Positions 6,369-61,528 of a DNA stretch of 64,000 bases are shown here, piece by piece. How positions within the stretch are numbered: position 1 is the stretch's first letter; each line of letters starts with the position of its first letter. Position numbers and translations under genes: made by a program. Origin of the DNA: Patescibacteria group bacterium (GTDB lineage: Bacteria > Patescibacteriota > Patescibacteriia > UBA9570 > JAHJKD01); contig JBAZVM010000008.1 in the NCBI GenBank assembly GCA_041660885.1, forward strand, positions 7,537 to 71,536, read 5' to 3'. The notes below the pieces were generated by a model. It had not been told where the DNA came from, ran no database searches, and saw only the letters and a list, made by a program, of their open reading frames with translations.

Positions 6369-7036
6369 ATTATTTTTCCATCGGCTAAATGAATGATACG
6401 ATTGGCGAATACCTCTTCTTCCGGTTCGTGGGTGACCATGACAATCGTATGATTATCGTGTTTATTTAATTCTTTTAGAATTTTCATAACAGAATTGGCG
6501 GCCTGGGTATCCAAATTGGCCGTGGGCTCGTCCGCGAAAATCACTTTAGGATCGTTGATCAAAGCGCGGGCAATGGCCACTTTCTGTTTTTCTCCGCCGG
6601 AAAGCTGGTTCGGTAAACTTTTTATTCTTCTCTCCATTCCGACTTTAGATAATAAACGATGCGCTCTTTTTTCGCATTCTATTTTTTTATTAAGAAGCAT
6701 GGCGGGAAGCATGACATTTTCCAAAGCGGTTAGTTCGGAAAGCAAAGCGTATTCCTGAAAAATATAGCCAATTTTTGTTAAACGCATTTTCGCTCTTAAT
6801 TTTTCTTTCATCTGAATAACTTCCTCGTCTAATAAATGTATGGTTCCGGAATCGGGTTTATCCAATAAACCTAATTGCCTGAGCAAGGTGGATTTGCCGG
6901 AGCCGTTGCGTCCTTTAATAATTAAAAAATCTCCTTCGTGCAAATCGAAAGAAACCCCCTTTAAAGCGTGTACTTTTACATGCCCGCTTTCGTAAAATTT
7001 ATGAATATTGTGAACGGATACTATTTTATTCGGCAT
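6365..7036 (-). CDS. ABC transporter ATP-binding protein (MacB/LolD-like)
   Basis: Walker [11 protein letters not shown]-loop, signature [15 protein letters not shown], Walker [10 protein letters not shown]-loop VTHE. The start is moved to ATG 7034-7036 ([11 protein letters not shown]...) because the longer ORF (to 7099) runs through tRNA-Pro. Confidence 0.9.
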
Positions 7037-7604: not shown

Positions 7605-7612
7605 ATTATAGC
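7605..7612 (-). promoter_or_regulatory. Candidate -10 element (GCTATAAT) upstream of the GC-rich RNA region
   Basis: The minus strand reads cGCTATAATttat, overlapping the stop codon of the 7606-8148 gene. The same 8-mer precedes four other transcription units in this window. Confidence 0.35.
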
Positions 7613-8148
7613 GCCGTCAAATTTTTACGATCAATATTATAAAATCCCCACTCGCTCCAGCGCCAAATGGCTTGATATTTTGGTTTGCACTTATATTTTT
7701 TGGTGTATTCTCCTTCTAATACCACCAACTCGTTCTTACCATCATTATCTATGTCCTTTATTTCCGCGGAACAATTCGGTTTATTTAAATTAGAAGACTG
7801 CCAAACGGAATTTACCGTTTCCCCATCTAATTGATAAAGAAATAAATGATTCTTTATGGAATCATCATTCTTCCGCACCCAAAAAGGCTTGGACGAACCG
7901 TAATCGCCCGGTTTCCAAACCAATAAATTTATCTCGGTTTGGCCGTCGTTATTGCTGTCCGCCAAAATAAATTGGTCCACATGCCATTCTTTGGGCGTCT
8001 GCCATAAATGTTTATCGTTTTTCGTTATGGTGAAAATATTGTTTTGCAATGAATAACAAACGCCTGCCATACATTCAACGGTACGGACATGCCATGGCAT
8101 GTCCGTACGCGATAATAAAAAATACAACGCGATTAAAATTAATTCCAT
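7606..8148 (-). CDS. Small FG-GAP/VCBS-like repeat protein with an N-terminal hydrophobic anchor
   Basis: 180 aa. ADSNNDGQTEINLLVW and IKDIDNDGKNELVVLEG are FG-GAP/VCBS-type Ca-binding loop motifs. The ATG directly abuts the upstream TAA (TAAATG). Confidence 0.55.
   Translation of the reverse strand: MELILIALYFLLSRTDMPWHVRTVECMAGVCYSLQNNIFTITKNDKHLWQTPKEWHVDQFILADSNNDGQTEINLLVWKPGDYGSSKPFWVRKNDDSIKNHLFLYQLDGETVNSVWQSSNLNKPNCSAEIKDIDNDGKNELVVLEGEYTKKYKCKPKYQAIWRWSEWGFYNIDRKNLTAL
8081..8108. repeat. Perfect 28-nt GC-rich palindrome inside the CDS
   Basis: GTACGGACATGCCA|TGGCATGTCCGTAC. The two 14-nt arms are exact reverse complements. It encodes ..RTDMPWHVRT.. just after the hydrophobic N-terminus. 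Confidence 0.9.
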
Positions 8149-10473: not shown

Positions 10474-12399
10474 ATGGAAAATTTATCTTTACGCGCCAAA
10501 ATAGCGTTAATCAGCCTTGGTTTTATTATGGTTATTTGCCCTTGGCTCGGAGGCGGATTACTACCGGACTTCTCTTACCAAATCATTCTTATTCTTACAG
10601 CTTTATCGCTTTTTTTATTCGGCATGGTTTTTATCGTGGAAAAAAAGCCATTTATATCAGAAAAAAAGCCTTTTATATTTATTTTTCTTTTTTTATTTAT
10701 CGCGGCCGGAATAATAAGTTCTATTTTTTCTATTCGTTCATACAACAGTTGGTCGGAGTCTATTATGTGGCTTGCCGGAATCGCTCTTTTTATAATTCTC
10801 TCCCAATTGAATACCGAAGGCATTTTAAAAAAATTTGCTTGGTTTTTTATCAGTATGGGATCCATAGTTTCCGTGGCCGGTTTTATTATTTTTTTTCTTA
10901 ATGATGAATCCAGATTAGAATCGGTTTTGGCCAATCCGAATTTATTATCCGGCTATCTTATTGGTATCTGGCCTATTGTTTTAACTTTATTATTTTTACC
11001 TTCTGCAAAAAAAGTAAAAATTCTGCTCTATATTCTAAACATAATCATAGCAAGCGCTTTTGTTTTAACGGTTTCTTACAGTGCGTGGGCGGCTATTGTG
11101 CCGATTATATTATTCTTGATCATATATTTTAGAAAAAAAATATTCAATATAAAATTCATGGCTTGGGTTTTATTAGCCTGTTTATTGATATTTACTAATG
11201 TTTCCTTATTGCGTTATTACAATACTAATTCTGCCACAGAGGGCGTGGCGGTTTATAAAAGCATTACCAAAACTCACGCCAGTTACAGCGGCAGCCAGCG
11301 CTTAGATTTTTTAAAAAACGGTTTAAATATTTTCACTGAACATCCGCTAACCGGCATCGGGCTTAATAATTTAAAGCTGGCTTACCAAAAAAAACAAACC
11401 AATATCGTGGAAACTCCCCGCTCCACGCACAATAATTATTTGGATATTTCTATTGAAATGGGAATATTAGGCATTATCGGCTTTGGCGGATTTATTTTAT
11501 TTTTATTTATTAAATTTTTAAAATTAAAAAATAATTTATATTGCTTGGGATTATTTTTAGGATGGATGGGTTTATTGATTTACGGGGCCGTGGATTTTGC
11601 CTGGCAAATAAAAATTATTATTGTGCATTTTTTTATTATGTCCGGGTTGTTGTATGGGTGTTATTTGCGGCAAAATAAAAACTCCGTAGTGGCGACTCTA
11701 GAGTCGCCACTACTACGAAATGCATCCCGTAAAATAATAATTTTTATTTTTATAATTTTATCCCTTACATTTTTCGCGCGCGGGGTGCAAATATTTTTAA
11801 ACAATAATAATAAAATTCAAGGCGAACGCTACCAAGAATTAAGTGAATACAGAACCGCGATTAGCTATTATAATCAAGCTTACCGATACGACAAAGATCC
11901 GGATTTATTAGCTAAAATTGGCATTCTGCAATACACGGAAGAAAACTACGCGGAGGCGGAAAAAACCACACTCCTATGGATAGAAAAAAGCCCCCACGAT
12001 CCCTCGGCTTACCAATTGCTCGGGCGAATATTCAAAGCGCAAAATAAATTAGTTGAAGCCAATGAACAATTTAATAAAGCGTTAATCCTGGCCCCTTATA
12101 CGAATTCGGAAATAAAATTGGATTCTATCGAAACAAATTTTATGTTAGGCAATTATAAAATCGTTGTTGATGAAGTAGATCCCTATATTATTATTTATAG
12201 CGTTAACAGGCCGGAGCCGACATGGGAAATAAAAAACAGCATTTCCATAAACTTAACGAAAATGCTGGATTACCAAGGAGACGCTTATTTAGCTTTAGGT
12301 GATAAAGAAAAAGCCAGGGATTCCTGGCAACGAGCTCTGTTGGAGCGGCCTTCTTATTATATCGCCCAGCAAAAAATTGATAAATTAGATAACTTATAA
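10474..12399 (+). CDS. O-antigen ligase/polymerase-like (Wzy_C) polytopic membrane protein with a C-terminal TPR domain
   Basis: 641 aa with about 10-12 TM segments. A loop with HPLTGIGLNNLKLAY...PRSTHNNYLDISIEMG, typical of the O-antigen ligase family. C-terminal TPR-like repeats (YNQAYRYDKDP, YQLLGRIFKAQNKLVEANEQFNKAL). Confidence 0.7.
   Translation: MENLSLRAKIALISLGFIMVICPWLGGGLLPDFSYQIILILTALSLFLFGMVFIVEKKPFISEKKPFIFIFLFLFIAAGIISSIFSIRSYNSWSESIMWLAGIALFIILSQLNTEGILKKFAWFFISMGSIVSVAGFIIFFLNDESRLESVLANPNLLSGYLIGIWPIVLTLLFLPSAKKVKILLYILNIIIASAFVLTVSYSAWAAIVPIILFLIIYFRKKIFNIKFMAWVLLACLLIFTNVSLLRYYNTNSATEGVAVYKSITKTHASYSGSQRLDFLKNGLNIFTEHPLTGIGLNNLKLAYQKKQTNIVETPRSTHNNYLDISIEMGILGIIGFGGFILFLFIKFLKLKNNLYCLGLFLGWMGLLIYGAVDFAWQIKIIIVHFFIMSGLLYGCYLRQNKNSVVATLESPLLRNASRKIIIFIFIILSLTFFARGVQIFLNNNNKIQGERYQELSEYRTAISYYNQAYRYDKDPDLLAKIGILQYTEENYAEAEKTTLLWIEKSPHDPSAYQLLGRIFKAQNKLVEANEQFNKALILAPYTNSEIKLDSIETNFMLGNYKIVVDEVDPYIIIYSVNRPEPTWEIKNSISINLTKMLDYQGDAYLALGDKEKARDSWQRALLERPSYYIAQQKIDKLDNL
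11686..11713. repeat. Perfect 28-nt GC-rich palindrome inside the CDS
   Basis: GTAGTGGCGACTCT|AGAGTCGCCACTAC. It encodes ..VVATLESPLL.. in the linker between the membrane domain and the TPR domain. Confidence 0.9.
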
Positions 12400-15870: not shown

Positions 15871-15894
15871 CCCCTCTCCATGTCTGGAGAGGGG
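15871..15894 (-). terminator. GC-rich hairpin between the giant-gene array and gatC (possible terminator, no U-tract)
   Basis: CCCCTCTCCA-tgtc-TGGAGAGGGG, a 10-bp perfect stem 20 nt downstream of the 1690-aa gene stop. Confidence 0.4.
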
Positions 15895-30484: not shown

Positions 30485-33400
30485 CTATTCAAACGGAGTC
30501 CAACGAAAGACTTCTTTGCCCTTGTCGTTAAGAACTATGATGACGTTTTTATTTTCTATTTGCAGGCGATAATCCTGGCGCACATATCTGAACATGCTTC
30601 TCTTTTGTAAATGAAATTTATTATCATCGGTATTGAAACTATAAACTTTTAAGTAAATGGAAGCTCCACGTTTAGAAGCAACCACAATTTCTTCCGTGTT
30701 CTTAGTGGTGTTTAGATTGCCCACGGACATCTTTCTCCAATGCAATTTGGGAGATAATCTTTTTGCTGTGATGAAATTGCCATCTATATCGTAAGCGCGA
30801 ATAGAAGAGCCAGCTCTCTTTTTTACGGCAAAGACATACATATGATTTTTAATCTCGGCTAATCTGGGAATCACTCCGCCTACGGGGAAAGCTTGGAAAG
30901 TGGTTATCAAAACATTATCTTCCGTATAAAGGTTTACTATACCTCTTCCCCTGTTGGTACCGGTACAGTAATTCACTTCTTGGTCTTCGGTATTTCCATC
31001 TTCCGCCGCGGTAACGCTGACAATCATTTCATTGCTTTCCGCCGTGGCGCCATCCGGATCAGCCGCGATAAAACGCATATCTTCGGAGCCTTCGTAACTT
31101 GCATCAGCGGTAAATGTCACTTCGCCATTATCATTTATATTTGCAGTAACATCTTGATTTCCGGCAACGCTATAGGTTAATAGATCGCCATTAGGATCAG
31201 AGAAATAATCATCAAGGTCAAATACAACCGGGGTAGTTGTGCCAGCAATAAAGGAAACGTTATCTAAACTGCCGGCAAACATCGGGGCGATATTAGTTTC
31301 AATTACGGTTATGTTTAATACTTGAGTAACATTATTATCGCTGTCGCTGGCTTGGAAAGTAGTAGTATAGGTACCGGCTTGATCCAGGGTTGGGGTCCAA
31401 GCAAAAGTGCCGGTGTTATTGCCATTGTCGGTAAACAAAGTAGCAATGTCTACTCCGATATTTGAATAATCATTAGTCGTATCCAAAGCGCTTAATGTTA
31501 GGCTGGAGGTATCAACATCGTTGGCCCCTACCGAGAAAGTAAGATGAGAGCCGGTGCCAATGGTTTTTTCATCAATAGACACAAAAGATGGAGCATCGTT
31601 ATCAGCGGCTACTTCTATGAGCATATCATCAGCCGCGGAAGTTACGGTGCCATCATTTACTTCCAAAGAATATCGGCAAGCGTAATTAGAACTTTTATTA
31701 ATAATTGCCACTGAGGGATTAATGGTGGTGGATCCGGTTAAGCTGCAAGCATCAGAGGCATCCAGCGTTTCTACCCATTGGTAAGTTATAACATCGCCGG
31801 TATCAACATCGCTTGATCCGGAACCATCCAGCGTAACCGTGGCTGCATCTTCATTCACATTTTGGTTGCTTCCGGCATTAGCTATTGGCGTATCATTAAC
31901 CGGATTAACCGTCAAAGAAATGTCTCCGCTGTCCACTGTGGCCAAGCCAACATCCGTGCATCTGAATTTAACAGTTTGGCTGCCGTTGTAATTTGCGTCA
32001 GGAGAGAATGATACTTCATTGTCTCCGTCTATGTTTACGGTAATGTTGGCGGGGTCTGTTGGTACGGTATAGGTACAGCTGTCTCCGGGGTCGATATCAG
32101 TAAAATAAGTATCTAAATCAAAAGCTAGATTTTTGTCAGTATCTTCATTCCAAGCAGCTACTGTCGGTGATCCGGCAAAGGTTGGGGCATCATTAACATT
32201 AGCAACATTCACGGTGATGGAATTGGAAGCAGTGGAAGCGCTGCCTAAGTCTTCACAAGAGAATTGGATGGTATCCGTGCCAGTGGCATTGGCTAATAAG
32301 GTAAAGTCTATGGTTTGGTCTCCGTTAATAGTCATGGTGCCTAATGCTGCGGATAAATCATTGGTAGCAGTGCAAGTATATAGGTCGTTATCATTCCAAT
32401 CAGCATCAGAGAAGTAAGTGTCTAAATCAAAAGCATTGGGTGTATTTACATCTTCTGTTAAGTTTTGAGTGGGTATACTGCTATCTAAAGCAGGTGAAGT
32501 ATTTAACGTGGTGAAATTGGTGCAAGAAGAATAGCTGGAGTCTCCACTGGTTTGATCATCAGAGTATCTTACTTTGAAAGAATATTGAGTGTGTCCTTTT
32601 AAGTTTGTTTTACCAAGATGGCTGTCTAAGAAAGAGCCGTCTGTGCCATCTATATCTATACTGGCTAAATTAGTAGCGGTGTCGACAGCGCTCCAAATAG
32701 CAGAACCGGAACAATCAGAAGATTCGTACACATACCAATCACTATATGTGTGCGGATCTGAATCAGAGTCGCTAAAGGCGGAAGCGGTTAAAGTGGCATT
32801 CTTGCTTTGGTCTGTGGCACCATTGGTTGGCAAAGAATTGGTGGGGGTAGAGGGAACATTATTAGCAGCCGAGGTAAAGTTTACCGGAGTGGACCAATCT
32901 GAATCTCCTCCCGGAGAAGCGTATCTAACGCAAGCGTAATAACTGGTATTGGCTGTTAATCTTGTTTTTCCTGCTAATGCTCCTGAGAAGGTACCATTGG
33001 TGCTGTTGGCTGTTATGCTGGTTTTATTTACGGCGTCGTTGTCTTTAGACCAAACAATATTGCTAACGCAAGAATTGCTGGTGGAAATAGTCCAATCAGA
33101 GCTTTGATGTTCGCCATAACCGCTGTAAGCGCTGCCGCTCATAGCCGGAGTCCTAGTTGAATCGCTCATGGTTAGAGTGGGGGCGTTGGCTGTGGCATCG
33201 TATTCCAGAGTAATACTGTCTAATTCCACTTCTTCCGTGGTATCGGAGATTAAGAAAGCTTTGAAGTAGAAATCTCCTGTGCCTACATCAGTGGCAAAGG
33301 TTGGTAAATAGGCGTTTACTTCGGCTATAGTATTGTATTGGGATGCTATACTTGTAACTGCTTCCCAAGAAGTACCATCATGGTAATACCAATTCGTGCC

Positions 33401-36400
33401 ATCATTAGAAATATTATAAACAACCAATCCCTCCATATTACCATCTGTAGCGCTAAGCCCTAACAAAGTTCCAAAGGTTGGATGCGTTCCAGCTAAAGAA
33501 GGAGATACGGTTATTTCTGAAAAGAAGCGACTCGTTTCTGTCTCATCCGGTATTAAAGTAGGTTCAGGAAAAGCATATTCTCGAATAAGAGTTTTCCCAG
33601 GATAGCTTGATGTTGAATAACTAGTATTTTGGTACAAATCCGCTCTTTCATCCGCCGTCAGCATTCCAGTATAAACATTAATTTCATCCATTCTTCCCGT
33701 CCACCATCTCCCGCCACCACCCCATCTGCCAAATCTTAAATATTGCCCGCTGAAAGATATCGTGGAAGCTCCGCCAGAACCAACCAGCGATCCATTCACG
33801 TAAACCCACGATCCAGTCGTATCTTTGATCGCGACAATGTGCTGCCAATTACTGGCGGTTAAATCAAACGTTCCTGTAATGCCATTAAAACCATACCGAT
33901 TTGTTGTTCCGCCGTCTTGTTGCATAACGAAGTTATGAGAAGCGTCATGATTATTATCAAAAATGTCCGCGTATGTATTTTGAGTCGCGCCCGGCCTTAC
34001 CCAAAGGCTGATAGAAAAAGTCTGGTAGTCAAGCCACGACCCCATATCAATATTATCGTCCGAACCATCAAATGCAATGCAAGTGCCGCTATGACAATTA
34101 GCCGCTGTTTGCCACGCCGGTATTCCAGCTAATGTTCCACTGTGCGAAGAACCCGACTGATCAACTAAGGATGTTCCCGATCCTTCTTCCATAAGAAGAG
34201 AGGAGGTGTTTCCACTTATTTCTCTAATGAAAGTATCTGCCACACTAGATAAAGAAGTCGCTGTATTATTTCCATAATACAGATAAAAAGTTGCCGTTGA
34301 TGAGGCAGGAATCGTTGGCACTTCTACCCAGAAGTATGCCAAACTGGAATCCGTTTTGTTATCTAACCAATAGTCCAACAATGTTGTTCCGTCGGATGAG
34401 GTAAACCGAATGTCATCGAAATCCGCTTGCATGTCTGAATCATATGGGAGTGTAATTTTAACTTGATAATTCGTGAGTTCGGAAGCTGTATTATTTACGA
34501 TGCTGTAAGATTGCCGATAATTCCAATCCGCTAAAGCCGCGTTTGCGCTTGCTTCACCAACCCAAGCCGTGGTTGGTTCAGTCGCTGCGTACTTGCGAAC
34601 AAAAATCCAATCCCAATTTGCCGTGTAACTTTGTGAAGCGTAACCATCTGGTCTCTCGCCTAACATGATATATTCCGCACTTAATCCGCCATTATTATTT
34701 GTTATTGTTTGGGCTGATGTTGTACCTTCATTGTACATATAAATTGTAGACCCTGTGCCAATAGCAGTCATCTTTACCCTTATCCAATTAGTCATATATG
34801 TCCAATCAGCCCTAGTATATGCGCCATCGTTCCATGAATGAGGTAAATTGGTTGGATGGAACAAAAGATTATAACCATTGCTTGCTGAACCCCACCATCC
34901 GCCTATCATATGTCCATTGCTTGCTTCCGTGGTCACGTAGTGTCTTGTCTCTAAAATGTAATTGCCAGTGAATGTGCCTACGCTTTTCAATTGATAGTCG
35001 GTATTTCCGCCGTTCAAATATCCGCTGGATTCAGTAAAACCAGTGCCACTCTGCCACAATGCTAAATCAATAGAGCCGTCATCAAAATCATCACCAAACA
35101 CAAATGTATTGGAAATATCAGAATAGGCGGCAGCACTCGCATAACCGTAATACATATAGATAGTTGCAAAAGAAGAGGCGGGAATCGTTGGCACCTCTAA
35201 CCAAATTGTAGCTGATGTTGAATCTGTTTTTGTTTCTATCCAATAATCAAGAAGGGTTGTACCATCAGAGGAGGTAAACCTGATATCGTCAAAATCCGCT
35301 TGCATATCGGCATCATATAAAACATCAAACTTTACTTGATAATTTGTAAGTTCTGACGCGGTAGTATTGGAAACCATCATTGTTTTACGTTTAGGATAAT
35401 CAAGCAAAGGCGCGCCTTTATATACTCCGGCCCCTTGATCTTTTAATCTAGCCAAGCTGTTGCCGGAAGCGTCTAGCTCTGCATAAGTATCATTATAATC
35501 ATAATTATCTCCGACAACAGCTTCATTAAAATGCCACGTGGCATCGCTAGAGGGATAATTATATTCCGTGGTAATGGTAATATAATCCCAATCGCTGTCT
35601 CCAGCGGAATTGGTATAGCGCACGCAAGCTTTGTATGTTGTGTTATAAGATAAAGAAGTTCCTACGGTTATAGAAGTTAAATTTACCGCGTCATGTTCCG
35701 ATTCCCAAATAGCCGCATCATCGCAAGTGTCGGTTGAAGCGACAATTTTCCAATCGGAAGAGTCTTGCCCTAAGCCGTTATCGGAATAGGTAGAAGATGT
35801 GATTACCGGAGTAAGACTATTATTGTAAGAATTATCTAGCGGGTTGGAAATAGCAGGCGCATCAGGAACAGTGCGCTGAACTAATGAAGCAGTTCCGGAT
35901 TCTCCCGCGTATCCGGTTGTAGCTGTAGTTACACTCATGGATCCTAAATAGGTTGAAGTGCCAGCTATGGCATATATACGGCCGCCGCCGCCGGCTCCGG
36001 CATTGCCCATTCTCGCGTTTGAACCATTAGCACTAAGATTAGAGCTGCCAGATAAAGCACCGGTTGCATCCAACCATATTGAGCCTCCGGAACCTCCGCC
36101 CCAAGCCCAATCCCATCCGCTATAATCCGTGCCTCCGTTCGCACTCATCGCGCCTCCGACGCTCATATTTCCGCCCGCGAATAATTTTATCGCGCCGCCT
36201 CCGGAAGAACCATAATTTGAAGCCGCTTCCCCCTTTCCTCCCGAACCAATGTTTGAAGGAGCTGTCGCTGATCCGTAAGTAGCGCCGCCGGTGTCTCCGC
36301 CATCCGAAGTGTTTCCTCCGCGGCCGCCGTATCCTCCGCCAGATCCGTAACTGCCGGCATCATGGCCGTGGCCATCTCCGTATCCGCCGTTGAATCCTCT

Positions 36401-39400
36401 TCCGTCTACATTTACAGATCCTGTCGCGCCGATAGTAATATCGGAAGTCGTGGCTATATCTATTTTATACGTTTCTAAAGTACTATTTTTTGAATGAGAA
36501 AGAACACCGTTTACTTCTAAACTGGTAAGAATTGCCCCGCCTGTTTTCGCCGTGTTGGCGTATAAATATGAACCGGCCGGGATCACAACTGCTCCATTGG
36601 TAACACCGCTTAATACACCGCTATTATCTGTGATGTTTCCGCCGGTCCAATTCAATGTTCCGCAAGTAAGGGTAACACCGGCTGATAATACAATATGCCC
36701 GTCATTAGAAATGGTGCAGGTATTATAACTATCACTAGTTACCGGTGTTTTACCCAGCCAATAATCACTGACGGTATAGTCATGGCTGTTATTATCGATT
36801 AGCAAAGTATCCGTAACCGTGGTTTCATCTTTAATATAAATCGTTCCGGCGCCGCCAAAACGCGCGCTTCCGGTATTATATCCGCCGTATGCCGTAATAG
36901 TAGAAGAAAAATTATCCGTGTCATAATAGATGGCAACACGCCCGCCGCCGCCATCAGCATAGGACGAATTAAGAGATGTCCCTCCATTGGCAGTAATGCC
37001 GCCCGCGCCTTCAATGGTATCTGCAACAAGGTATATGGAACCTCCAGACCCCGCGCCATCATGATCAACGGTCATAGCTAAACCATTGGCATAAACAGGG
37101 CCGGTGAGCGTGAGAGTTGTACCAGCAGTTAATTTTACCGCACCGCCGCCTCGGCCGTTTCGCGTAGACCAAACGCCACCACCACTGCCAATCTTTGTCG
37201 GAGTTTTAATCAATCCATTAGTTGCCCCTCCGGTGTAATAAACACCATCCCCTCCTTCACCGCCGTAAGATCCGCCGCCGCACCAGCCAGATCCTCCTCC
37301 ATTGCCGGCACCATCGCCATATCCACCGCTAAAGCCTCTACCATTAACATTTACCTCCGCGCCCGTTGCTACATTTATGGCGCCGCTGGTGGTGTAATCA
37401 ATTTTATATGATTCAACGTTTGTATTGTTCCAATGAGACAATACCTCGTTAATGGTTAAACTAGTAACACTGCGCGCGGTATTGGCGTATAAATAAGAAT
37501 CATCTGGCACTACTACGGCGCCGGAGGTTACGGTAGAAAGGCTGCCTCCGTTATCAGAAATATTTCCTCCAGTCCAAGTTAAAGTTGTGTAATTAATGGT
37601 CAACCCTGAAACAAGATCAAGATGGCCGTCGTTTGCAATGGTTACTGTTTCAAAAGTATATGGAGAAATATCTGTCGGCAATGGCGTTTTTCCGTAATAA
37701 CGCGTATCTGAAGTATAATCATGGCTATTATTTTTAATAGTTAAAATTCCATCATCATCAGGATTGTCGTGTTCTTCAACATAAATAGTTCCGGCGCCGC
37801 CAAAACGCGCGCTTCCGGTATTATACCCGCCGTATACCGTGGGCGTACCGGAATAAGTAGTGCTATCATAATAAATGGCAATGCGGCCGCCTCCGCCACC
37901 GGCATAGTTAGAATTAAGAGCTGTACCACCATTAGCTGTAATGCCACCCGCGCCGGCCATTGATGCTGTGTCAATATAAACTGAGCCTCCCGAACCACCG
38001 CCATTGTGGTCGACTGTGACAGTATATCCATCCGCATAAATTGAACCTGTCACCGTGAGTGCTGTACCGACGGTTAATCTGATTGAACCGCCGCCGGCAT
38101 TATCAAAACGATCAACCGCCCAGTACCCGCCGCCGCTGCCGAGATCATCCGGTTCATAGATTGATCCATAAGTAGTGCCTCCAGCATAGTAAACACCGTC
38201 TCCTCCTTCACCGCCGTAAGAACCGCCGCCACAGTATCCGGATCCTCCGCCGCTGCCTGCATGCTGGTTGCTATCAGCGCTATATCCTCCGGCATATCCT
38301 TTGCCATTTACATTTATTTCCGCTCCGCTTTCCACGGTGACGGCACCGGTTGTAGTATAATTAATTTTATATGCTTCCGTGTTGCTATTGTTCCAATTAG
38401 ACATAATCCCATTAACCGTTAAGCTGGTAACGCTCCGTGTAGTATTCGCGTAATAATAAGAACCAGACGGTACTACAACAGCGCCGGTAGACAAGGTATT
38501 AATAACACCTCCTCCGTTATCAGCAATATTTCCGCCTGTCCAAGTTAAGCCTCCATCTGTTAAAGTTATATCTGTATCCGAGTTTAAATCTAGATGGCCG
38601 TCATTAGAAACAGTAAGATAATCCAAAGTTAAATCTAAATGCGTACCGCTTGGGGTAAGGGGTGTTTTTCCATACGATCCAGAATATCTAGTGTAATCGT
38701 GACTGTTATTATTAATAGTTAAAGTTCCATCATCACTAGCGTCGTCATGATCTTTCGTGTAAACAGTACCAGATCCGCCAAAACGTATACTTGAAGAATT
38801 ATACCCTCCATATGCCGTGGGAGTAATGGAATTTGTGTCGTTGTAATAAATGGCAATGCGTCCGCCGCCGCCATCAGCATAGTTCGTATGTTTTGATGTT
38901 CCTCCATTGGCTGTAATGCTTCCCGCGCCGGCAAGAGTAGCAACATCAAGATAAACGGAACCGCCGGATCCTGCGGCATTATGGTCTGCGGAAACGGCGT
39001 TACCATTCGCGGAAATTGAACCGGACACTGTCAGTGTTCCGGCAACATTTAATTTTACAGCGCCGCCGCCGCTATTGGTGCGATCAATCGCCCAGTACCC
39101 GCCGCCACTGCCGAGATCATCAGGTGATGTGATTGATCCATAAACATTTCCTCCGGCATAATAAATTCCTTCTCCGCCCTCACCGCCGTAAGATCCGCCG
39201 CCGCAATATCCAGACCCGCCTCCACTGCCAGCACCTGTACCGTATCCTCCGGCGTATCCTTTATTATTTACATTAATAGATCCAATAATATCAGAGTCTC
39301 CGGTTTGTACATCTATATTTACCGTTGCAACAACTCCCTGTGCTCCTGCTGTATGAGTAATTGTTCCGTTTGACTCTACTGTTAAATCACCCGAGTCTAT

Positions 39401-40719: not shown

Positions 40720-42702
40720 TTACAAAATACTAATAAATTCTTTTTCTGAAAGGATTTTTATGTTAATTTTCTTTGCTTTCGTATATTTAGAGCCAGGTTC
40801 CTCCCCCGCAATTACATAATCGGTCTGTTTAGAAACTGAGGAGGAAATATTTCCGCCGGCTTGCCTGATTTTTTCTTTGGCTTCATCGCGCGTCATGGTT
40901 TTTAAAGTGCCGGTTAAGACGAATGTGTTGCCGGTTATCGATTTATTGGCGGAGACGCGATAAATCGCGTCTCTACGGATACACACCCCATTTTGCAATA
41001 ATTTTTTTATTAAATCCTTATTTTTCTTATCTTGAAAAAAATCATACACGCTTTTGGCCATCACTTCTCCCACTTCGTGAATTTTATTAAGTTCTTCTTG
41101 GGAAGCGTTTATTAATTTGGAAAGCGAACCAAACTGGCCAGCCAAGTCATAAGCGGTTTCTTCACCCACATGGCGTATGCCCAAAGCGTAAATGAATTTA
41201 GCAAAAGAAACCTCTTTAGCTTTGGCAATACTCTTAATTAGATTGTCCGCGGATTTTTCCGCGAATCGTTCCAACAGCTGCAGATCTTCTTTTCTTAGAG
41301 AAAAAATATCAGCCGCGTCCGCGATCAATCCTTCTTCCAGCAGCTGATCTATAATTTTCGGGCCAAGGCCGTCGATATCAAAGGCTTTTTTAGAAACAAA
41401 ATGATAAAGCTTTTCTTTTTCTTGCGCAAAGCATTGCTTGTTGGAACAATAATGCGCCACTTCGCCTTCGCGGCGCAGAACTTTGGAACCGCATGCCGGG
41501 CAAGTCTTGGGAAAAATAAAAGCCTTGGCATTATTCGGCCGCAAATTTTTTAGCACTTTAACAATATCGGGGATAATATCTCCGGCCTTCTGGATGATTA
41601 CCGTGTCCCCTACGCGCACATCCAGCCTTTTTATTTCATCTTCATTATGCAAAGTAGCACGGGCGACTGTTGTTCCGGCCACAGATACCGGTTTTAAATG
41701 CGCTACGGGTGTCAGCGCGCCCGTGCGGCCTACTTGTACTTGAATATCCTCCACAATAGTCGTTGCTTGCTCGGCCGGATATTTATAGGCGATTCCTCCT
41801 CTAGGCGCTTTACCGGCCACTCCCAACTTTTTAAACAACGCAATATCATTTACGTTAATCACCGTGCCATCGGACCAGTAATTAAATTTTTTGCGTATCT
41901 TACCGATTTTTTCGTAATATTTTTCTACTTCGTTTAAATCACGGCAATGAGCGTTATGCTCGTTGCTTCTAAACCCCAAGCGCGTTAATTCTTGATGCAC
42001 TTGTTCGTGCGTGGCAAGCCCGATATCGGAAGCAATATCATAAGCCATAAAATCCAGCTTGCGCGAGGCGGGAATTTTTGGGTCCAACTGGCGGATAGAG
42101 CCGGCCGCGATATTGCGCGGGTTCGCGTATTTGCCTTCTTCTCGCTTATTCAAAGCCTCAAAATTTTTCTTGCTCATATACACTTCCCCACGCACCTCTA
42201 TTTTTTTTGGGAAAGGTTCGTTTAATTTTAATGGAATGGAATTAATTGTCTTTAAATTAGAAGTGACGTCTTCTCCGATTTTTCCGTCCCCTCTTGTGGA
42301 ACCTTGCGTTAATAAACCGTTTTCGTAAATTAAATTAACAGCCAAGCCGTCCATTTTTATTTCCGCGTAATAATCAAATTTATCCTGCGGCGCCAACTTT
42401 TTTATTCTTTTTTCCCAATCCTGAAGTTCATCAAAGCTAAAGCAATCCACCAGCGAAAGCATGGGTTTGCTATGAGCGACTTTATGAAAAGCGGCCAGCG
42501 CTTTTCCCGCCACCCTTTGCGTGGGTGAATCCGGCGTAATTAAAACGGGCCACTCCTGCTCCAATATAAAAAGCTCGCGCTTTAGCGAATCTAAAGCCGC
42601 GTCGGATATTTCTTGCTTATCCAAAACATGATACTGATAACGGTAATGGTTTATCTCTTTTTTTAATTTTTCTATTCTGGCCTTAGCTTCAGATTTATTC
42701 AT
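40720..42702 (-). CDS. ligA: NAD-dependent DNA ligase
   Basis: 660 aa. Adenylation motif KMDGLA, an OB fold, a Zn finger CPACGSKVLRREGEVAHYCSNKQC, HhH repeats and a C-terminal BRCT (FVLTGTL...R.EAKEKI...GG.ISSSVSKQTDYVIAGE.PGSK..KA). Confidence 0.95.
   Translation of the reverse strand: MNKSEAKARIEKLKKEINHYRYQYHVLDKQEISDAALDSLKRELFILEQEWPVLITPDSPTQRVAGKALAAFHKVAHSKPMLSLVDCFSFDELQDWEKRIKKLAPQDKFDYYAEIKMDGLAVNLIYENGLLTQGSTRGDGKIGEDVTSNLKTINSIPLKLNEPFPKKIEVRGEVYMSKKNFEALNKREEGKYANPRNIAAGSIRQLDPKIPASRKLDFMAYDIASDIGLATHEQVHQELTRLGFRSNEHNAHCRDLNEVEKYYEKIGKIRKKFNYWSDGTVINVNDIALFKKLGVAGKAPRGGIAYKYPAEQATTIVEDIQVQVGRTGALTPVAHLKPVSVAGTTVARATLHNEDEIKRLDVRVGDTVIIQKAGDIIPDIVKVLKNLRPNNAKAFIFPKTCPACGSKVLRREGEVAHYCSNKQCFAQEKEKLYHFVSKKAFDIDGLGPKIIDQLLEEGLIADAADIFSLRKEDLQLLERFAEKSADNLIKSIAKAKEVSFAKFIYALGIRHVGEETAYDLAGQFGSLSKLINASQEELNKIHEVGEVMAKSVYDFFQDKKNKDLIKKLLQNGVCIRRDAIYRVSANKSITGNTFVLTGTLKTMTRDEAKEKIRQAGGNISSSVSKQTDYVIAGEEPGSKYTKAKKINIKILSEKEFISIL
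40952..40973. repeat. GC-rich inverted repeat (10-bp arms, 2-nt centre) inside ligA
   Basis: GAGACGCGAT-aa-ATCGCGTCTC. It encodes ..RRDAIYRVS.. in the linker between the HhH and BRCT domains. Confidence 0.85.
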
Positions 42703-45933: not shown

Positions 45934-45965
45934 AAAAAAGCCCCTCAATAAAAGGGGCTTTTTTC
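45934..45965 (-). terminator. Intrinsic terminator after the major pilin gene
   Basis: The minus strand reads AAAAAAGCCCC-ttttattga-GGGGCTTTTTTT, starting 12 nt after the pilA stop. A GC-core stem plus a U-tract. Confidence 0.8.
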
Positions 45966-57625: not shown

Positions 57626-59029
57626 CTACGGAGTGGATATATTAAGCTCTGGCAAAGTGGCTATTAAATCCTCCAAGCCAGGAGGCGTATTTAATAACGC
57701 GTGTCCATCATAAATAAATTTCTCGGAGGGTACGTCTTTAGTCTCTTCTTTAACGCGATCACGCTGAAAATTAAACGCTTTAGCCATCATTAACCCGTAG
57801 ACATTAAGCGGCTGATTGCCCTCTCCTGTGGAAACGCCGGTTTCACCCAAAACTATATAAGCACCAGCCATTTCCGTGACATTAGAACCGATGGTAAGGT
57901 TACCGGTAATTATCCAAGCCGCGCTGGCTAAATTATATAAATTTTCTACGGAAGAATCTCCATAAGAAATATTGCGGTTTACTGTTAAGTCTCCATCTAT
58001 AATAATGGTTCCGTTACCTAAAGTATTGGCAACGCCAATAGAGCCGGAACCGTTGGGGATGGTAATGGGATCATCAATAATCAGATTTCCATTATATATA
58101 TAAGAATCCCCGTCTAAAACGCGATTATCTAACTCCGTATCAGTAAAAAATTCCGTAGCCGAACTTTCAAGCGAAGTAATGTTTATTTTGCCGATATTAC
58201 TGCGGTAAGAGCCGCTATTTAACTCCGGAAACGGGATATCGTAGCCGGTCATGGTGCCGCCGGATAAATTAGTATCAAAATTAGAAACGGTTCCCGTGCT
58301 AAGGATTAAAAAGCTGGCGTTAACTTGGCCCGTGGGCGCGGGAATATCGATATCCGCGCCACTATATACATCGCCGTATTTGGTTTGTATCCAACCATCT
58401 ACTCCAATTACAGACGCATCAAATTGCACAAGACCGAACCCTTTACCGCCAGAGGGAGCGCTAAATCCCCAACCCACTAGTTTTCCATAACTCTCCCATG
58501 GCGGCGTATCTTTATAGAAGTCCCGATCCAAAGAAACGCCGTAATTACTGCCGCGCAATTTTATCCAACCCCATTCATTCGATTTTGGTGTTTTTTCATT
58601 CCAGCCGTATTTTCCCAAAGAATATATTCTCGCCCAACCGGAAATTTCCCCGGATTCGCTGTAAACCGCGCCCGAAGTAACATAAGCAGGCAAAGTTTCG
58701 CCGGCACTTAAATAATCATTGGCATTACCGCTAAATTGTATCCAACCTAAAACATCGCTTGTTGTGGCATCCTTAGTTCCAGCCCAAGCCCAGCCGTTTA
58801 CTGTTTTTGTATCTGTATCTACGGAAACATGATAATCGTTTGCGCATATAACATTCAGATTATGGCAATTAAAGCTAATAAACCCCGGGCTGGCGTAAGT
58901 AGAAGAAGCCGTGCCTATCCATCCCCAACCCATGATATCCACCACTTCGGCTTTAGCGGAATGGCAAAACAAAAAAAACAAGACGACTATAAAAATCTTA
59001 AGATGAAAAAAATAAAATTTATGTGCCAT
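57626..59029 (-). CDS. Secreted protein with a G-W repeat N-half and a beta-helix-like C-half (function unknown)
   Basis: The start was moved to ATG 59029 (MAHKFYFFHLKIFIVVLFFLFCHSAKA, a signal peptide). The longer track ORF overlaps the upstream gene. Recurrent motifs: GWGWIG, NGWAWAG, LGWIQFSG, SGWARI, WGWIKL, VGWGF, DGWIQ. Confidence 0.6.
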   Translation of the reverse strand: MAHKFYFFHLKIFIVVLFFLFCHSAKAEVVDIMGWGWIGTASSTYASPGFISFNCHNLNVICANDYHVSVDTDTKTVNGWAWAGTKDATTSDVLGWIQFSGNANDYLSAGETLPAYVTSGAVYSESGEISGWARIYSLGKYGWNEKTPKSNEWGWIKLRGSNYGVSLDRDFYKDTPPWESYGKLVGWGFSAPSGGKGFGLVQFDASVIGVDGWIQTKYGDVYSGADIDIPAPTGQVNASFLILSTGTVSNFDTNLSGGTMTGYDIPFPELNSGSYRSNIGKINITSLESSATEFFTDTELDNRVLDGDSYIYNGNLIIDDPITIPNGSGSIGVANTLGNGTIIIDGDLTVNRNISYGDSSVENLYNLASAAWIITGNLTIGSNVTEMAGAYIVLGETGVSTGEGNQPLNVYGLMMAKAFNFQRDRVKEETKDVPSEKFIYDGHALLNTPPGLEDLIATLPELNISTP

Positions 59030-60959: not shown

Positions 60960-61048
60960 TTTGTTTTTTGACAGAAGCCAATAAATAATTATATAATATA
61001 TGAGATATAATTTATATTCTTTTAAAATATTAACATTTCTTGTTGCTA

Positions 61049-61528
61049 ATGTCAAACAAAGAAATAAACTTTTATACAAAGAGATACCTGGCCTTTTTTA
61101 TAGTGAACGGAATAGTATTAGGTTTGATTATCGGCATTCCTTTGGGATACTGGTTTAAAGGAAGAAATGCTAATATTGAACCTGCCGTTACCAATACCAA
61201 CATGACAACAGATAATAGTACATCGCCTTTATATGTGGAAACGGAAACTAAAACAGTCCAAGCCGGCGTAATCACCGATATTAAAGGAAAAACCATATAT
61301 ATAGATGGGGAAATCATTCAAAACGGTCAAATAGGCAAACAAAATTTTGCCGTAGAAACAAACAACGATACGGTATTCAAAAGAATAGACAACAACAATA
61401 ATATTTTTGAAGACATGTCTCTGAATGATTTAAAAACAGGAGACCAAATTACCGCTATTTCGGCTGAAGATTTTAAAGGAAGAACGGAATTCACGGCTAC
61501 ACAAATAAATTATTATTTAAATAATTAA
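61049..61528 (+). CDS. Small membrane-anchored hypothetical protein
   Basis: ATG at 61049 (the track start 61040 is TTG). One TM ([23 protein letters not shown]), then a soluble domain of about 120 aa. Confidence 0.55.

What the first reader, a model, noticed from the sequence alone, without database searches (positions are those of the whole stretch)
8081..8108. Perfect 28-nt GC-rich palindrome embedded in frame near the 5' end of the FG-GAP gene
Seen in the sequence: GTACGGACATGCCATGGCATGTCCGTAC is an exact palindrome with 14-nt arms and no spacer. It sits in an otherwise AT-rich gene and encodes RTDMPWHVRT between the hydrophobic N-terminus and the repeat domain.

A second, unrelated-sequence palindrome of exactly the same length and with the same GTA...TAC ends sits in the Wzy-like gene (11686-11713). 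A 22-nt one sits in ligA (40952-40973). All three lie in predicted inter-domain linkers.

This recalls the in-frame insertion of small palindromic elements into coding regions known from Rickettsia (RPEs). It could also be a protein-binding or recombination site, or an mRNA hairpin that regulates translation.
Basis: partly seen in the sequence, partly recalled or inferred. Interest (0 to 1): 0.6.

Follow-up and report, generated by a model that had tools for sequence, protein, structure and literature searches.

The report
Tiny mobile hairpin repeats inside genes
The 28-base palindromes are real and far from chance, but they belong to a known kind of tiny hairpin repeat ("double-foot" GTAG REP elements, linked to RAYT transposases), here sitting in frame inside tolerant linker regions of three genes of a Patescibacteria (CPR) bacterium.

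Summary
Window 8081-8108 and 11686-11713 are perfect 28-nt palindromes; no perfect 28-mer appeared in 20 shuffles. The ligA element is a decayed third copy: 10-nt arms plus a 2-nt spacer, or 11 of 14 pairs in the 28-nt register at 40949-40976.

They are related to one another. All fit one architecture: GTAG-N-G-R-C, a 12-nt palindromic interior, then G-Y-C-N-CTAC.

Two collection scans fixed only the 8-nt feet. In both, the unconstrained interior was perfectly palindromic in most hits: 83 of 129 genome sites and 75 of 120 metagenome sites (chance about 1 in 4096). Hits fall in Bacteroidota, Cyanobacteria, Chloroflexota and Patescibacteria.

This is the published "double-foot" REP, cognate to RAYT/TnpA_REP subclass 2.4, which is known to insert in frame into genes. 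A related Patescibacteria contig (L133) encodes such a RAYT with a perfect copy inside it. The window has no RAYT.

Orthologues show three things:
- Empty sites exist in both ligA and the Wzy-like gene.
- Different variants occupy the same linker in different lineages.
- The FG-GAP copy has been inherited with compensatory changes.

No strand bias supports an mRNA role. Verdict: a new member of a known kind, of moderate to low interest.

The parts
8081..8108 (.). Copy 1: a perfect 28-nt double-foot palindrome, GTACGGACATGCCATGGCATGTCCGTAC. The foot is GTAC rather than GTAG. It sits in frame in the FG-GAP-like gene, reading cGT ACG GAC ... GTC CGT ACc = R-T-D-M-P-W-H-V-R-T.
   Evidence: Orthologues L004 (GTAGAGACATGCCATGGTATGTCTCTAC) and L005 (GTAGGGACATGCCATGGCGTGTCCCTAC) carry the same interior at the same codon position. 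Their foot positions 4/25 and 5/24 differ by compensatory changes.
7606..8148 (-). Host gene of copy 1: a 180-aa protein with an N-terminal hydrophobic segment and an FG-GAP-like domain. The element occupies roughly codons 14-23.
11686..11713 (.). Copy 2: a perfect 28-nt double-foot palindrome, GTAGTGGCGACTCTAGAGTCGCCACTAC, of the GTAGTGGC foot subfamily. It reads in frame as GTA GTG GCG ACT CTA GAG TCG CCA CTA = V-V-A-T-L-E-S-P-L.
   Evidence: A metagenome scan with only the GTAGTGRC/GYCACTAC feet fixed gave perfectly palindromic interiors in 75 of 120 sites. One RAYT-like ORF (L203, identified by motif only) carries the near-identical insert VVATHASPL.
10474..12399 (+). Host gene of copy 2: an O-antigen-ligase-like (Wzy_C) membrane protein with C-terminal TPR repeats. 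The element lies in a loop between hydrophobic segments.
   Evidence: In the same loop, orthologue L131 carries a different variant (GTAGAGACGATGCATGCCGCGTCTCTAC, VETMHAASLQ). L132 carries a decayed copy. L133 and P0174 are empty.
40949..40976 (.). Copy 3: a decaying 28-nt copy. The sense (minus) strand reads GTAGAGACGCGATTTATCGCGTCTCCGC, forming 11 of 14 pairs. It sits in frame in ligA as cGT AGA GAC GCG ATT TAT CGC GTC TCC GCc = R-R-D-A-I-Y-R-V-S-A.
   Evidence: Orthologue L129 has GTAGAGACGCGATTAATCGCGTCTCTAA at the same position. Plectonema locus L086 holds the intact form GTAGAGACGCGATAAATCGCGTCTCTAC.
40720..42702 (-). Host gene of copy 3: NAD-dependent DNA ligase LigA. The element lies in the linker between the HhH and BRCT domains.

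Best explanation
The three palindromes are copies of a very small, hairpin-forming repeat element. It is the 28-nt 'double-foot' GTAG REP: 5' GT[AG]G on each strand, an 8-nt semi-conserved foot, and a variable but self-complementary interior.

**How it most likely works.**
- In other phyla these elements are the cognate substrates of a domesticated HUH/Y1 single-strand DNA transposase, the RAYT or TnpA_REP of subclass 2.4 (group 4).
- For the group 2 and group 3 enzymes studied in vitro, the enzyme binds the folded single-stranded hairpin plus the GTAG motif, then cleaves and rejoins next to it. Group 4 has not been assayed.
- Because this REP is symmetric, either DNA strand would present a substrate (inferred).

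**Why copies survive inside genes.** A copy persists only where roughly ten extra residues are tolerated, in linkers and loops. It must also sit in one of the two reading frames that avoid the element's own TAG stop. Those frames give V-E/V-T/A-x4-S/P-L or R/G/S/C-R/T-D-x4-V-S/P/R-T/A.

**The three copies.**
- Copy 1 is an old insertion shared by at least three lineages. It has stayed a perfect palindrome through complementary double changes in the foot.
- Copy 3 is decaying.
- Copy 2 belongs to a second foot subfamily.

**Shown:** family membership by architecture; association of the family with RAYT genes, including in a related Patescibacteria contig; presence, absence and variant polymorphism at orthologous sites; restriction to two frames; compensatory change.

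**Inferred:** that a RAYT moved these particular copies; that the palindromes are kept perfect by hairpin-templated correction or by re-copying rather than by selection for a host function; and the true inserted length.
For: Of 129 sites, the free 12-nt interior was perfectly palindromic in 83 and one mismatch off in 30. Interiors were many and different. Hits were in Bacteroidota, Cyanobacteria, Chloroflexota, Ignavibacteria and Patescibacteria.
2. **Second foot subfamily.** The same held for the foot of copy 2 in metagenomes: 75 of 120 interiors perfect.
3. **Length.** Among 205 perfect palindromes with arms of at least 10 nt in 1.65 Mb of fetched loci, 28 nt dominates (101). Every by-catch 28-mer is GTAG...CTAC except copy 1 itself.
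[quoted passage not shown] L133 lies on a contig that also carries the Wzy orthologue P0173. Its ORF scores Pfam Y1_Tnp 26.6 bits (cut-off 23) and NCBIfam REP_Tyr_transpos E 1.1e-15.
5. **Literature.** Quentin et al. 2018 (PMC6006769) define double-foot REPs (5' GT[AG]G plus 3' C[TC]AC) for subclass 2.4, in Cyanobacteria, Bacteroidetes and scattered phyla. They report in-frame insertion into tnpA_REP. Their supplementary file 2 lists, for example, the 28-nt GTAGGGGCGAAAAATTTTTCGCCCCTAC. Di Nocera et al. 2013 (PMC3733652) report intragenic GTAG REPs, many in replication and repair genes, including a DNA ligase.
6. **Orthologous sites.**
   - In the ligA linker, P0050-P0055 carry REP peptides of different variants. 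P0056 and the next-closest homologues (through P0078) do not.
   - At the DNA level L128 has the interior of copy 1, L129 has the interior of copy 3, and L130 is empty.
   - The Wzy loop shows the same pattern.
7. **Frames.** 66 of 262 sites lie in long ORFs. All use frames 0 or 1, never the frame with TAG.
8. **Compensatory change in copy 1.** The foot is CGG/CCG in the window, GAG/CTC in L004 and GGG/CCC in L005. The encoded residues change with it (T/R/R and R/S/P), so the constraint acts on the nucleic acid rather than the peptide.
Against: - **No RAYT here.** None is present in the 64-kb window, and the rest of this genome was not available.
- **Little similarity between copies.** The three copies share only the foot, not a common full-length consensus. 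The 'highly similar multicopy repeat' criterion for REPs is therefore not demonstrated for this genome.
- **Copy 1 departs from the motif.** Its foot is GTAC, not the GT[AG]G motif defined for RAYT substrates.
- **All three copies are intragenic,** whereas classical REPs are mostly extragenic.
- **No clean insertion footprint.** Linkers with the element are only 3-12 residues longer than empty ones. A 28-nt insert alone would shift the frame. A 30-nt unit (T...A flanks in about half of sites) or secondary indels must be assumed.
- **No biochemistry.** None exists for subclass 2.4 RAYTs or for any Patescibacteria enzyme.
Confidence: 0.8

Rival explanations
1. The palindromes are functional mRNA hairpins. 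A stable stem in the coding region would slow the ribosome or mark an RNase cleavage site. This could, for example, allow membrane targeting of the nascent chain after a transmembrane segment.
For: - The predicted RNA stems are strong: -23.8, -21.7 and -16.6 kcal/mol.
- Copies 1 and 2 lie just after or between hydrophobic segments.
- Copy 1 keeps its pairing through compensatory changes.
- The single mismatches in L004 and L005 are G.U on the sense strand.
Against: - The same architecture occurs in intergenic DNA, in RAYT genes, and in dozens of unrelated genes across phyla.
- Among intragenic copies in long ORFs (66 sites), mismatches are G.U on the sense strand 13 times and A.C 14 times, so there is no strand bias.
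- Close orthologues manage without the element (L130, L133) or carry decayed copies (L132, P0052).
- The centre of the palindrome is also self-complementary, which an RNA hairpin loop does not need.
Confidence: 0.07
2. The palindromes are binding or recombination sites for a dimeric host protein, for example a Xer/dif-like 28-bp site, an operator, or a restriction or homing target.
For: The elements have perfect dyad symmetry, a fixed 28-bp length and conserved outer positions.
Against: - The interior 12 nt differ freely between copies and covary only with their own partner arm. That points to pairing rather than to a fixed protein recognition sequence.
- Copies are numerous and dispersed, and often lie inside the RAYT gene itself.
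- The enzymes published for this kind of element act on folded single strands (PMC8266576).
Confidence: 0.04
3. The elements are now immobile relics. An ancient burst of insertion left them behind, and the copies in this genome persist only by inheritance. Replication template-switching within the hairpin (quasi-palindrome correction) would keep or restore perfect symmetry, with no transposase active today.
For: - There is no RAYT in the window.
- Copy 1 is inherited across lineages at 60-72% protein identity.
- Its GTAC foot departs from the motif required by the RAYTs studied so far.
- Copy 3 and the copies in L132 and P0052 are decaying.
Against: - Different variants occupy the same linker in orthologues at 74-76% identity.
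- The copy-1 variant reappears in ligA of L128. Together these argue for movement or re-copying within this clade.
- A RAYT-like gene with intact HuH and Y motifs and a perfect internal REP exists in a relative, L133.
Confidence: 0.3

Closest known systems
'Double-foot' REP sequences cognate to TnpA_REP/RAYT subclass 2.4 (Bertels group 4), described by Quentin et al. 2018 (BMC Genomics 19:475, PMC6006769)
   Same: [quoted passage not shown]
- The length matches: the paper's supplementary file 2 lists GTAGGGGCGAAAAATTTTTCGCCCCTAC (28 nt, subclass 2.4) and many entries beginning GTAGAGAC.
- The taxonomic spread is the same: Cyanobacteria, Bacteroidetes and scattered phyla.
[quoted passage not shown]
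   Different: - The host is Patescibacteria (CPR). No paper found in my searches or read here reports REPs in that phylum, but the search was limited.
- All three window copies are intragenic, in ordinary host genes.
- Copy 1 has a GTAC foot.
- No RAYT was seen in the available 64 kb.
- The copies share only the foot, not a genome-specific consensus.
GTAG-tagged REP super-family, including intragenic REPs, described by Di Nocera, De Gregorio & Rocco 2013 (BMC Genomics 14:522, PMC3733652)
   Same: - It comprises short GTAG-tagged stem-loops, found among others in Cyanobacteria and Chloroflexi.
- REPs lying wholly inside ORFs are reported, often in replication and repair genes, including a DNA ligase.
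- Those authors also conclude that insertions survive where the extra residues are tolerated.
   Different: - Those families are tagged at one end and usually occur as dimers in intergenic DNA downstream of genes.
- Here the tag is on both ends, the copies are single, and they sit inside genes.
   Same: They are palindromic repeats that insert in frame into protein-coding genes and add a peptide segment.
   Different: - RPEs are about 100-150 bp (from my own knowledge), against 28 nt here.
- RPEs are tagged by CGTC rather than GTAG (PMC3733652).
- RPEs occur in Rickettsia.
- No RAYT association is described for them (from my own knowledge).
Small dispersed repeats (SDR, 21-27 nt) of Nostocaceae, described by Elhai et al. 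2008 (Genome Res 18:1484). The paper is not held in the library. SDR5/HIP1 insertion and the Nostocaceae restriction come from a citing paper (PMC5861425). The other details are recalled from memory.
   Same: - They are very small hairpin-forming dispersed elements.
- Compensatory mutations are reported in them.
- They are proposed to be mobile.
- Many of my genome hits are in Nostoc, Calothrix and related genera.
   Different: Identity between any SDR family and the GTAGAGAC...GTCTCTAC 28-mer could not be checked. SDRs were reported as confined to Nostocaceae, whereas this architecture spans several phyla.

Membership tests
Double-foot GTAG REP (RAYT subclass 2.4 type) | A 5' GT[AG]G tetranucleotide at the foot of the hairpin | tested here: inconclusive
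   Copy 2 (GTAG) and copy 3 (GTAG on the sense strand) meet it. Copy 1 reads GTAC. Its orthologous copies in L004 and L005 read GTAG.
Double-foot GTAG REP (RAYT subclass 2.4 type) | The reverse complement C[TC]AC at the 3' end, so that both strands carry the foot | tested here: inconclusive
   Copy 2 ends in CTAC and meets it. Copy 1 ends in GTAC, which is symmetric but off the motif. The second foot of copy 3 has decayed to CCGC, whereas orthologue L129 has CTAA.
Double-foot GTAG REP (RAYT subclass 2.4 type) | A fully paired GC-rich stem with a total length of 20-40 nt | tested here: met
   Copies 1 and 2 form 14 of 14 pairs and copy 3 forms 11 of 14. GC is 55-57% against 36-49% across the 2-kb bins of the window. 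Predicted RNA stems (ViennaRNA RNA parameters) are -16.6 to -23.8 kcal/mol.
Double-foot GTAG REP (RAYT subclass 2.4 type) | Belongs to a recurrent sequence family with the same foot and a covarying interior | tested here: met
   The interior was perfectly palindromic in 83 of 129 and 75 of 120 sites when only the feet were specified. The same foot types as copies 2 and 3 were found. Matching entries appear in supplementary file 2 of PMC6006769.
Double-foot GTAG REP (RAYT subclass 2.4 type) | Many similar copies within the same genome | not testable with these tools
   Only 64 kb of this genome is available. It holds three copies, with no further full or half sites above chance. Related Patescibacteria loci hold additional copies, in L004, L039, L132 and L133.
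Double-foot GTAG REP (RAYT subclass 2.4 type) | A cognate RAYT (HuH ... Y, YIxNNP) encoded in the genome, typically flanked by or containing the REP | tested here: inconclusive
   None was found in the window, by motif search or by tblastn with three RAYTs. The only weak hit lies in a large surface-protein ORF. A RAYT is present in the related Patescibacteria contig L133:14345-14959 with a perfect internal REP. It scores Pfam Y1_Tnp 26.6 bits and NCBIfam NF047646 E 1.1e-15, which at 57.8 bits is below that model's 80-bit cut-off.
Double-foot GTAG REP (RAYT subclass 2.4 type) | Cleavage and strand transfer of the folded single strand by the RAYT | not testable with these tools
   Biochemistry exists only for group 2 and group 3 enzymes (PMC8266576).
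Classical REP (extragenic) | Located in intergenic regions, mostly downstream of genes | tested here: not met
   All three window copies lie inside ORFs. Family-wide, about 25% of sites lie in long ORFs. Intragenic REPs are documented exceptions.
Rickettsia palindromic element (RPE) | A 100-150 bp element with a CGTC tag | tested here: not met
   The elements here are 28 nt and GTAG-tagged. The CGTC tag of RPEs is from PMC3733652. The RPE size is from my own knowledge.
Intrinsic terminator or regulatory mRNA hairpin | A stem followed by a T-run, or pairing conserved specifically on the transcribed strand | tested here: not met
   No T-run follows any copy, and all three lie inside ORFs. Sense-strand G.U mismatches number 13 against 14 A.C.

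The most novel reading that the evidence does not exclude
Intragenic double-foot REPs in Patescibacteria may be more than passive relics. They may turn over at fixed 'landing pads'. The same linker of ligA, and the same loop of the Wzy-like gene, are occupied in sister lineages by REPs with entirely different interiors. One variant (interior ATGCCATGGCAT with a CGTAC foot) appears in the FG-GAP gene of this genome and in ligA of a relative.

This would imply RAYT-mediated replacement of one hairpin by another between the conserved feet, or repeated site-specific insertion. It would be coupled to a hairpin-templated correction that keeps the palindromes perfect. Together these would form a small, ongoing generator of linker-peptide diversity in streamlined genomes.
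Probability: 0.25. Interest if true: 0.55.

Novelty: new member of a known kind. Interest (0 to 1): 0.35.

Why it matters
**Practical value.** Recognising these 28-mers avoids misreading them as regulatory sites, engineered linkers or assembly errors. The NcoI, XbaI and BsmBI sites they contain look synthetic. Recognition also explains recurrent odd peptides in proteins and spurious ORFs from Cyanobacteria, Bacteroidota and CPR bacteria, such as RRDAINRVST, VETRHGASLQ and VVATxxSPL. One contig (L004) begins exactly at a copy.

**Biological value.** The result extends REP/RAYT systems to Patescibacteria, whose tiny, gene-dense genomes leave little intergenic room. Copies are therefore seen in protein linkers.

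**A natural experiment.** The orthologue series provides material for studying how the smallest known mobile elements are gained, replaced and lost. It includes empty sites, intact copies, decayed copies and sites with swapped variants.

Tried and rejected
- **Chance or assembly artefact: rejected.** Shuffles gave no perfect 28-mer, and three independent assemblies carry the identical sequence.
- **Synthetic linker or adaptor: rejected.** I considered this because of the central NcoI and XbaI sites and the outward BsmBI sites. The element is present in orthologues with compensatory changes and in hundreds of unrelated public genomes.
- **More copies in the window: none found.** I scanned for GTA...TAC palindromes of 22-40 nt and for single feet. 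Nothing beyond the three copies exceeded shuffle expectation.
- **RAYT in the window: none found.** The motif regex and tblastn with three RAYTs gave only one weak hit (E 0.004 at 59127-59294). It lies inside a large surface-protein ORF and was dismissed.
- **mRNA-strand bias of wobble pairs: none found**.
- **Target-site duplication: none found.** There is no TA-TA pattern, only T at -1 and A at +1 in about half of sites.
- **Exact insertion length: not resolved.** The linkers vary too much in length among orthologues.
- **Literature: limited.** Full-text searches for palindromes in candidate phyla radiation genomes and for the string GTAGAGACG returned nothing relevant. Elhai et al. 2008 could not be read.
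- **DGR hairpins, CRISPR repeats, attC and dif sites:** I considered these from memory and dropped them once the RAYT association emerged.
Full report
**1. The observation**

Window 8081-8108 reads GTACGGACATGCCATGGCATGTCCGTAC, and 11686-11713 reads GTAGTGGCGACTCTAGAGTCGCCACTAC. Both are exact 14+14 palindromes with no spacer.

The ligA element at 40952-40973 has 10-nt arms around an AA spacer. In the 28-nt register (40949-40976) it forms 11 of 14 pairs.

No perfect 28-mer appeared in 20 Markov shuffles of the window.

The host ORFs are as follows:

| Copy | Host ORF | Protein | Position of the element |
|---|---|---|---|
| 1 | 7606-8148 (-) | 180 aa, hydrophobic N-terminus plus FG-GAP-like domain | roughly codons 14-23 |
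| 2 | 10474-12399 (+) | Wzy_C plus TPR | loop between hydrophobic segments |
| 3 | 40720-42702 (-) | LigA | HhH-BRCT linker |

The organism is a Patescibacteria (CPR) bacterium. The LigA and Wzy proteins match NCBI records named 'MAG... Patescibacteria group bacterium' on an 83,407-bp contig. Copy 1 is identical in three independent assemblies, so it is not an assembly artefact.

**2. The palindromes are one family**

On the sense strands the outer arms read as follows:
- GTACGGAC for copy 1.
- GTAGTGGC for copy 2.
- GTAGAGAC for copy 3.
- GTAGAGAC and GTAGGGAC for the orthologues of copy 1.

I scanned one genome per species (185,579 species) with only the feet specified, GTAGRGAC-N12-GTCYCTAC. 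The scan stopped at its 120-locus limit. Of the 129 sites, the unspecified interior was a perfect palindrome in 83 and one mismatch off in 30. Chance for six pairs is about 1 in 4096. Interiors were many and different, and some recurred across phyla.

Hosts are mainly Bacteroidota, Cyanobacteria, Chloroflexota and Ignavibacteria, with one Patescibacteria MAG (L039).

A metagenome scan with the foot of copy 2 (GTAGTGRC...GYCACTAC) gave the same picture: 75 of 120 interiors were perfect.

In 1.65 Mb of fetched loci, perfect palindromes peak sharply at 28 nt (101 of 205). Those lying outside the two searched patterns are again GTAG...CTAC, with feet such as GTAGGGGC.

**3. What the family is**

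Motif searches in the fetched loci found ORFs with the motifs MPNH[ILFV]H, WQ and YIxNNP. [quoted passage not shown] The inserted peptides include RRDAMHRVST, VETRHALSLQ, VETHGRASLQ and VVATHASPL.

This matches a published description. Quentin et al. 2018 define 'double foot' REPs as carrying 5' GT[AG]G plus 3' C[TC]AC. [quoted passage not shown] REP insertions inside the tnpA_REP genes do not break the frame (PMC6006769). Their supplementary file 2 lists 28-nt entries such as GTAGGGGCGAAAAATTTTTCGCCCCTAC and 25 occurrences of the string GTAGAGAC.

Di Nocera et al. 2013 had already reported GTAG-tagged REPs lying wholly inside genes. Many are in replication and repair genes, including a DNA ligase (PMC3733652).

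For the group 2 and group 3 RAYTs studied in vitro, the enzyme recognises the folded single-stranded hairpin together with the GTAG motif. It cleaves at a nearby CT or CA (PMC8266576).

**4. Evidence from relatives of this organism**

*Copy 1 (FG-GAP-like gene).* Orthologues at 72% and 60% protein identity keep the element at the same codon position with the same interior. The foot differs by complementary double changes:

| Source | Foot, 5' arm / 3' arm |
|---|---|
| Window | GTACGGAC / GTCCGTAC |
| L004 | GTAGAGAC / GTCTCTAC |
| L005 | GTAGGGAC / GTCCCTAC |

L004 and L005 each carry one extra mismatch in the interior. The encoded residues change with the foot, so pairing is what is kept rather than the peptide.

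*Copy 3 (ligA).* The closest LigA homologues (71-76% identity) all carry REP-type peptides in the same linker, but of different variants:
- RRDAINRVS(T/N) in P0051, P0054 and P0055.
- RRDMPWHVRT in P0050, which is almost the copy 1 peptide.
- GRDMLWHVRT in P0053.
- A decayed SRDVIHHAS in P0052.

P0056 and the next-closest homologues (through P0078, 63-71% identity) have none. A more distant group of Patescibacteria LigA again shows assorted REP peptides at this linker and at a second site near residue 533.

DNA confirms this pattern:

| Source | Sequence at the ligA linker |
|---|---|
| Window | ATC C\|GTAGAGACGCGATTTATCGCGTCTCCGC |
| L129 | ATT C\|GTAGAGACGCGATTAATCGCGTCTCTAA |
| L128 | ATC C\|GTAGGGACATGCCATGGCACGTTCGTAC |
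| L130 | empty |

*Copy 2 (Wzy-like gene).* In the same loop L131 carries GTAGAGACGATGCATGCCGCGTCTCTAC (VETMHAASLQ). L132 carries a decayed copy. L133 and P0174 are empty.

*A RAYT in a relative.* Contig L133 carries the Wzy orthologue P0173. It also encodes a 204-aa RAYT at L133:14345-14959, with these features:
- The motifs MPNHIH, WQ and YIQNNP.
- Pfam Y1_Tnp at 26.6 bits, above the 23-bit cut-off.
- NCBIfam 'REP-associated tyrosine transposase' at E 1.1e-15, which is below that model's cut-off. The match is split into two stretches, which the internal insert may explain.
- A perfect GTAGAGACGCATTGCAATGCGTCTCTAC inside it, read as VETHCNASLQ.

The window itself has no RAYT.

**5. Rules for survival inside genes**

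Of 262 sites from both scans, 66 lie within long ORFs. All use one of two frames. The third frame would read the element's own TAG as a stop.

The flanks show T at -1 in 51% of sites and A at +1 in 53%. There is no TA-TA duplication.

A 28-nt insert would shift the frame. A 30-nt unit, or secondary indels, must be assumed. Linkers with the element are only 3-12 residues longer than empty ones, so the footprint could not be defined.

**6. Rivals**

*An mRNA hairpin with a host function.* The stems are stable (-16.6 to -23.8 kcal/mol), so this is attractive. Several results argue against it:
- Mismatches in intragenic copies in long ORFs show no bias toward G.U on the sense strand (13 against 14).
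- Close orthologues lack the element or let it decay.
- The same architecture fills intergenic DNA and RAYT genes elsewhere.

*A site for a double-strand-binding protein.* This does not fit the freely varying, self-covarying interior.

*Relic versus active element.* The live uncertainty is whether these particular copies are still mobilised or are inherited relics kept symmetric by hairpin-templated correction.
- For relics: the GTAC foot of copy 1 and the decay of copy 3.
- For movement within the clade: the exchange of variants at one site, and the reappearance of the copy 1 variant in ligA of L128.

**7. Verdict**

The elements are double-foot GTAG REPs, a known class. I did not find them reported for Patescibacteria in the papers I could search, though that search was limited. 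This is a new member of a known kind.

The recurrent occupation of the same linkers by different variants is the one aspect that might repay further work.

Noticed in passing
L004:1-28: A metagenome contig begins exactly with a perfect copy, GTAGAGACGCAAAATTTTGCGTCTCTAC. This suggests that assemblies may break at these repeats. The same interior (GCAAAATTTTGC) recurs in several Bacteroidales loci.
   Followed up: no
L039:6582-6609 and 6664-6691: Two different perfect 28-mers, with feet GTAGGGGC and GTAGGGAC, lie 55 nt apart in a Patescibacteria MAG. This resembles a REP dimer or BIME-like arrangement.
   Followed up: no
P0103 residue 536 and P0118 residue 533 (LigA homologues): There is a second REP-type peptide site (VGTRHGVSL, VETLQATSL) about 40 residues upstream of the HhH-BRCT linker in some Patescibacteria LigA. 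P0118 appears to carry two elements.
   Followed up: partly
L050:2971-3030: A 60-nt perfect palindrome (TTTTGTGGTTATTAGAGACGCACGGATCGTACGATCCGTGCGTCTCTAATAACCACAAAA) lies next to a RAYT-like gene. It is built around REP-like arms and may be an inverted REP dimer or its fusion product.
   Followed up: no
L132:7953-7980: An intergenic perfect copy, GTAGTGACAGGTCTAGACCTGTCACTAC, lies between two acetolactate-synthase subunit genes in a relative of the window organism. Like window copy 2, it has a central TCTAGA.
   Followed up: no
window 45934-45964 and 15871-15894: Two other hairpins unrelated to the REP family. AAAAAAGCCCCTCAATAAAAGGGGCTTTTTT looks like a bidirectional intrinsic terminator. CCCCTCTCCATGTCTGGAGAGGGG has 10-nt arms and a 4-nt loop.
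   Followed up: no
window 30485-40654 (-): A very large ORF (3389 aa) lies just downstream of ligA on the minus strand. Further large ORFs that look like surface proteins lie at 57626-61079. None was characterised.
   Followed up: no
L005:3834-3865: A 32-nt perfect palindrome, AAGAAGGTGAGACATCGATGTCTCACCTTCTT, lies in the intergenic gap between two called genes in a relative's contig. It is not of the GTAG type.
   Followed up: no
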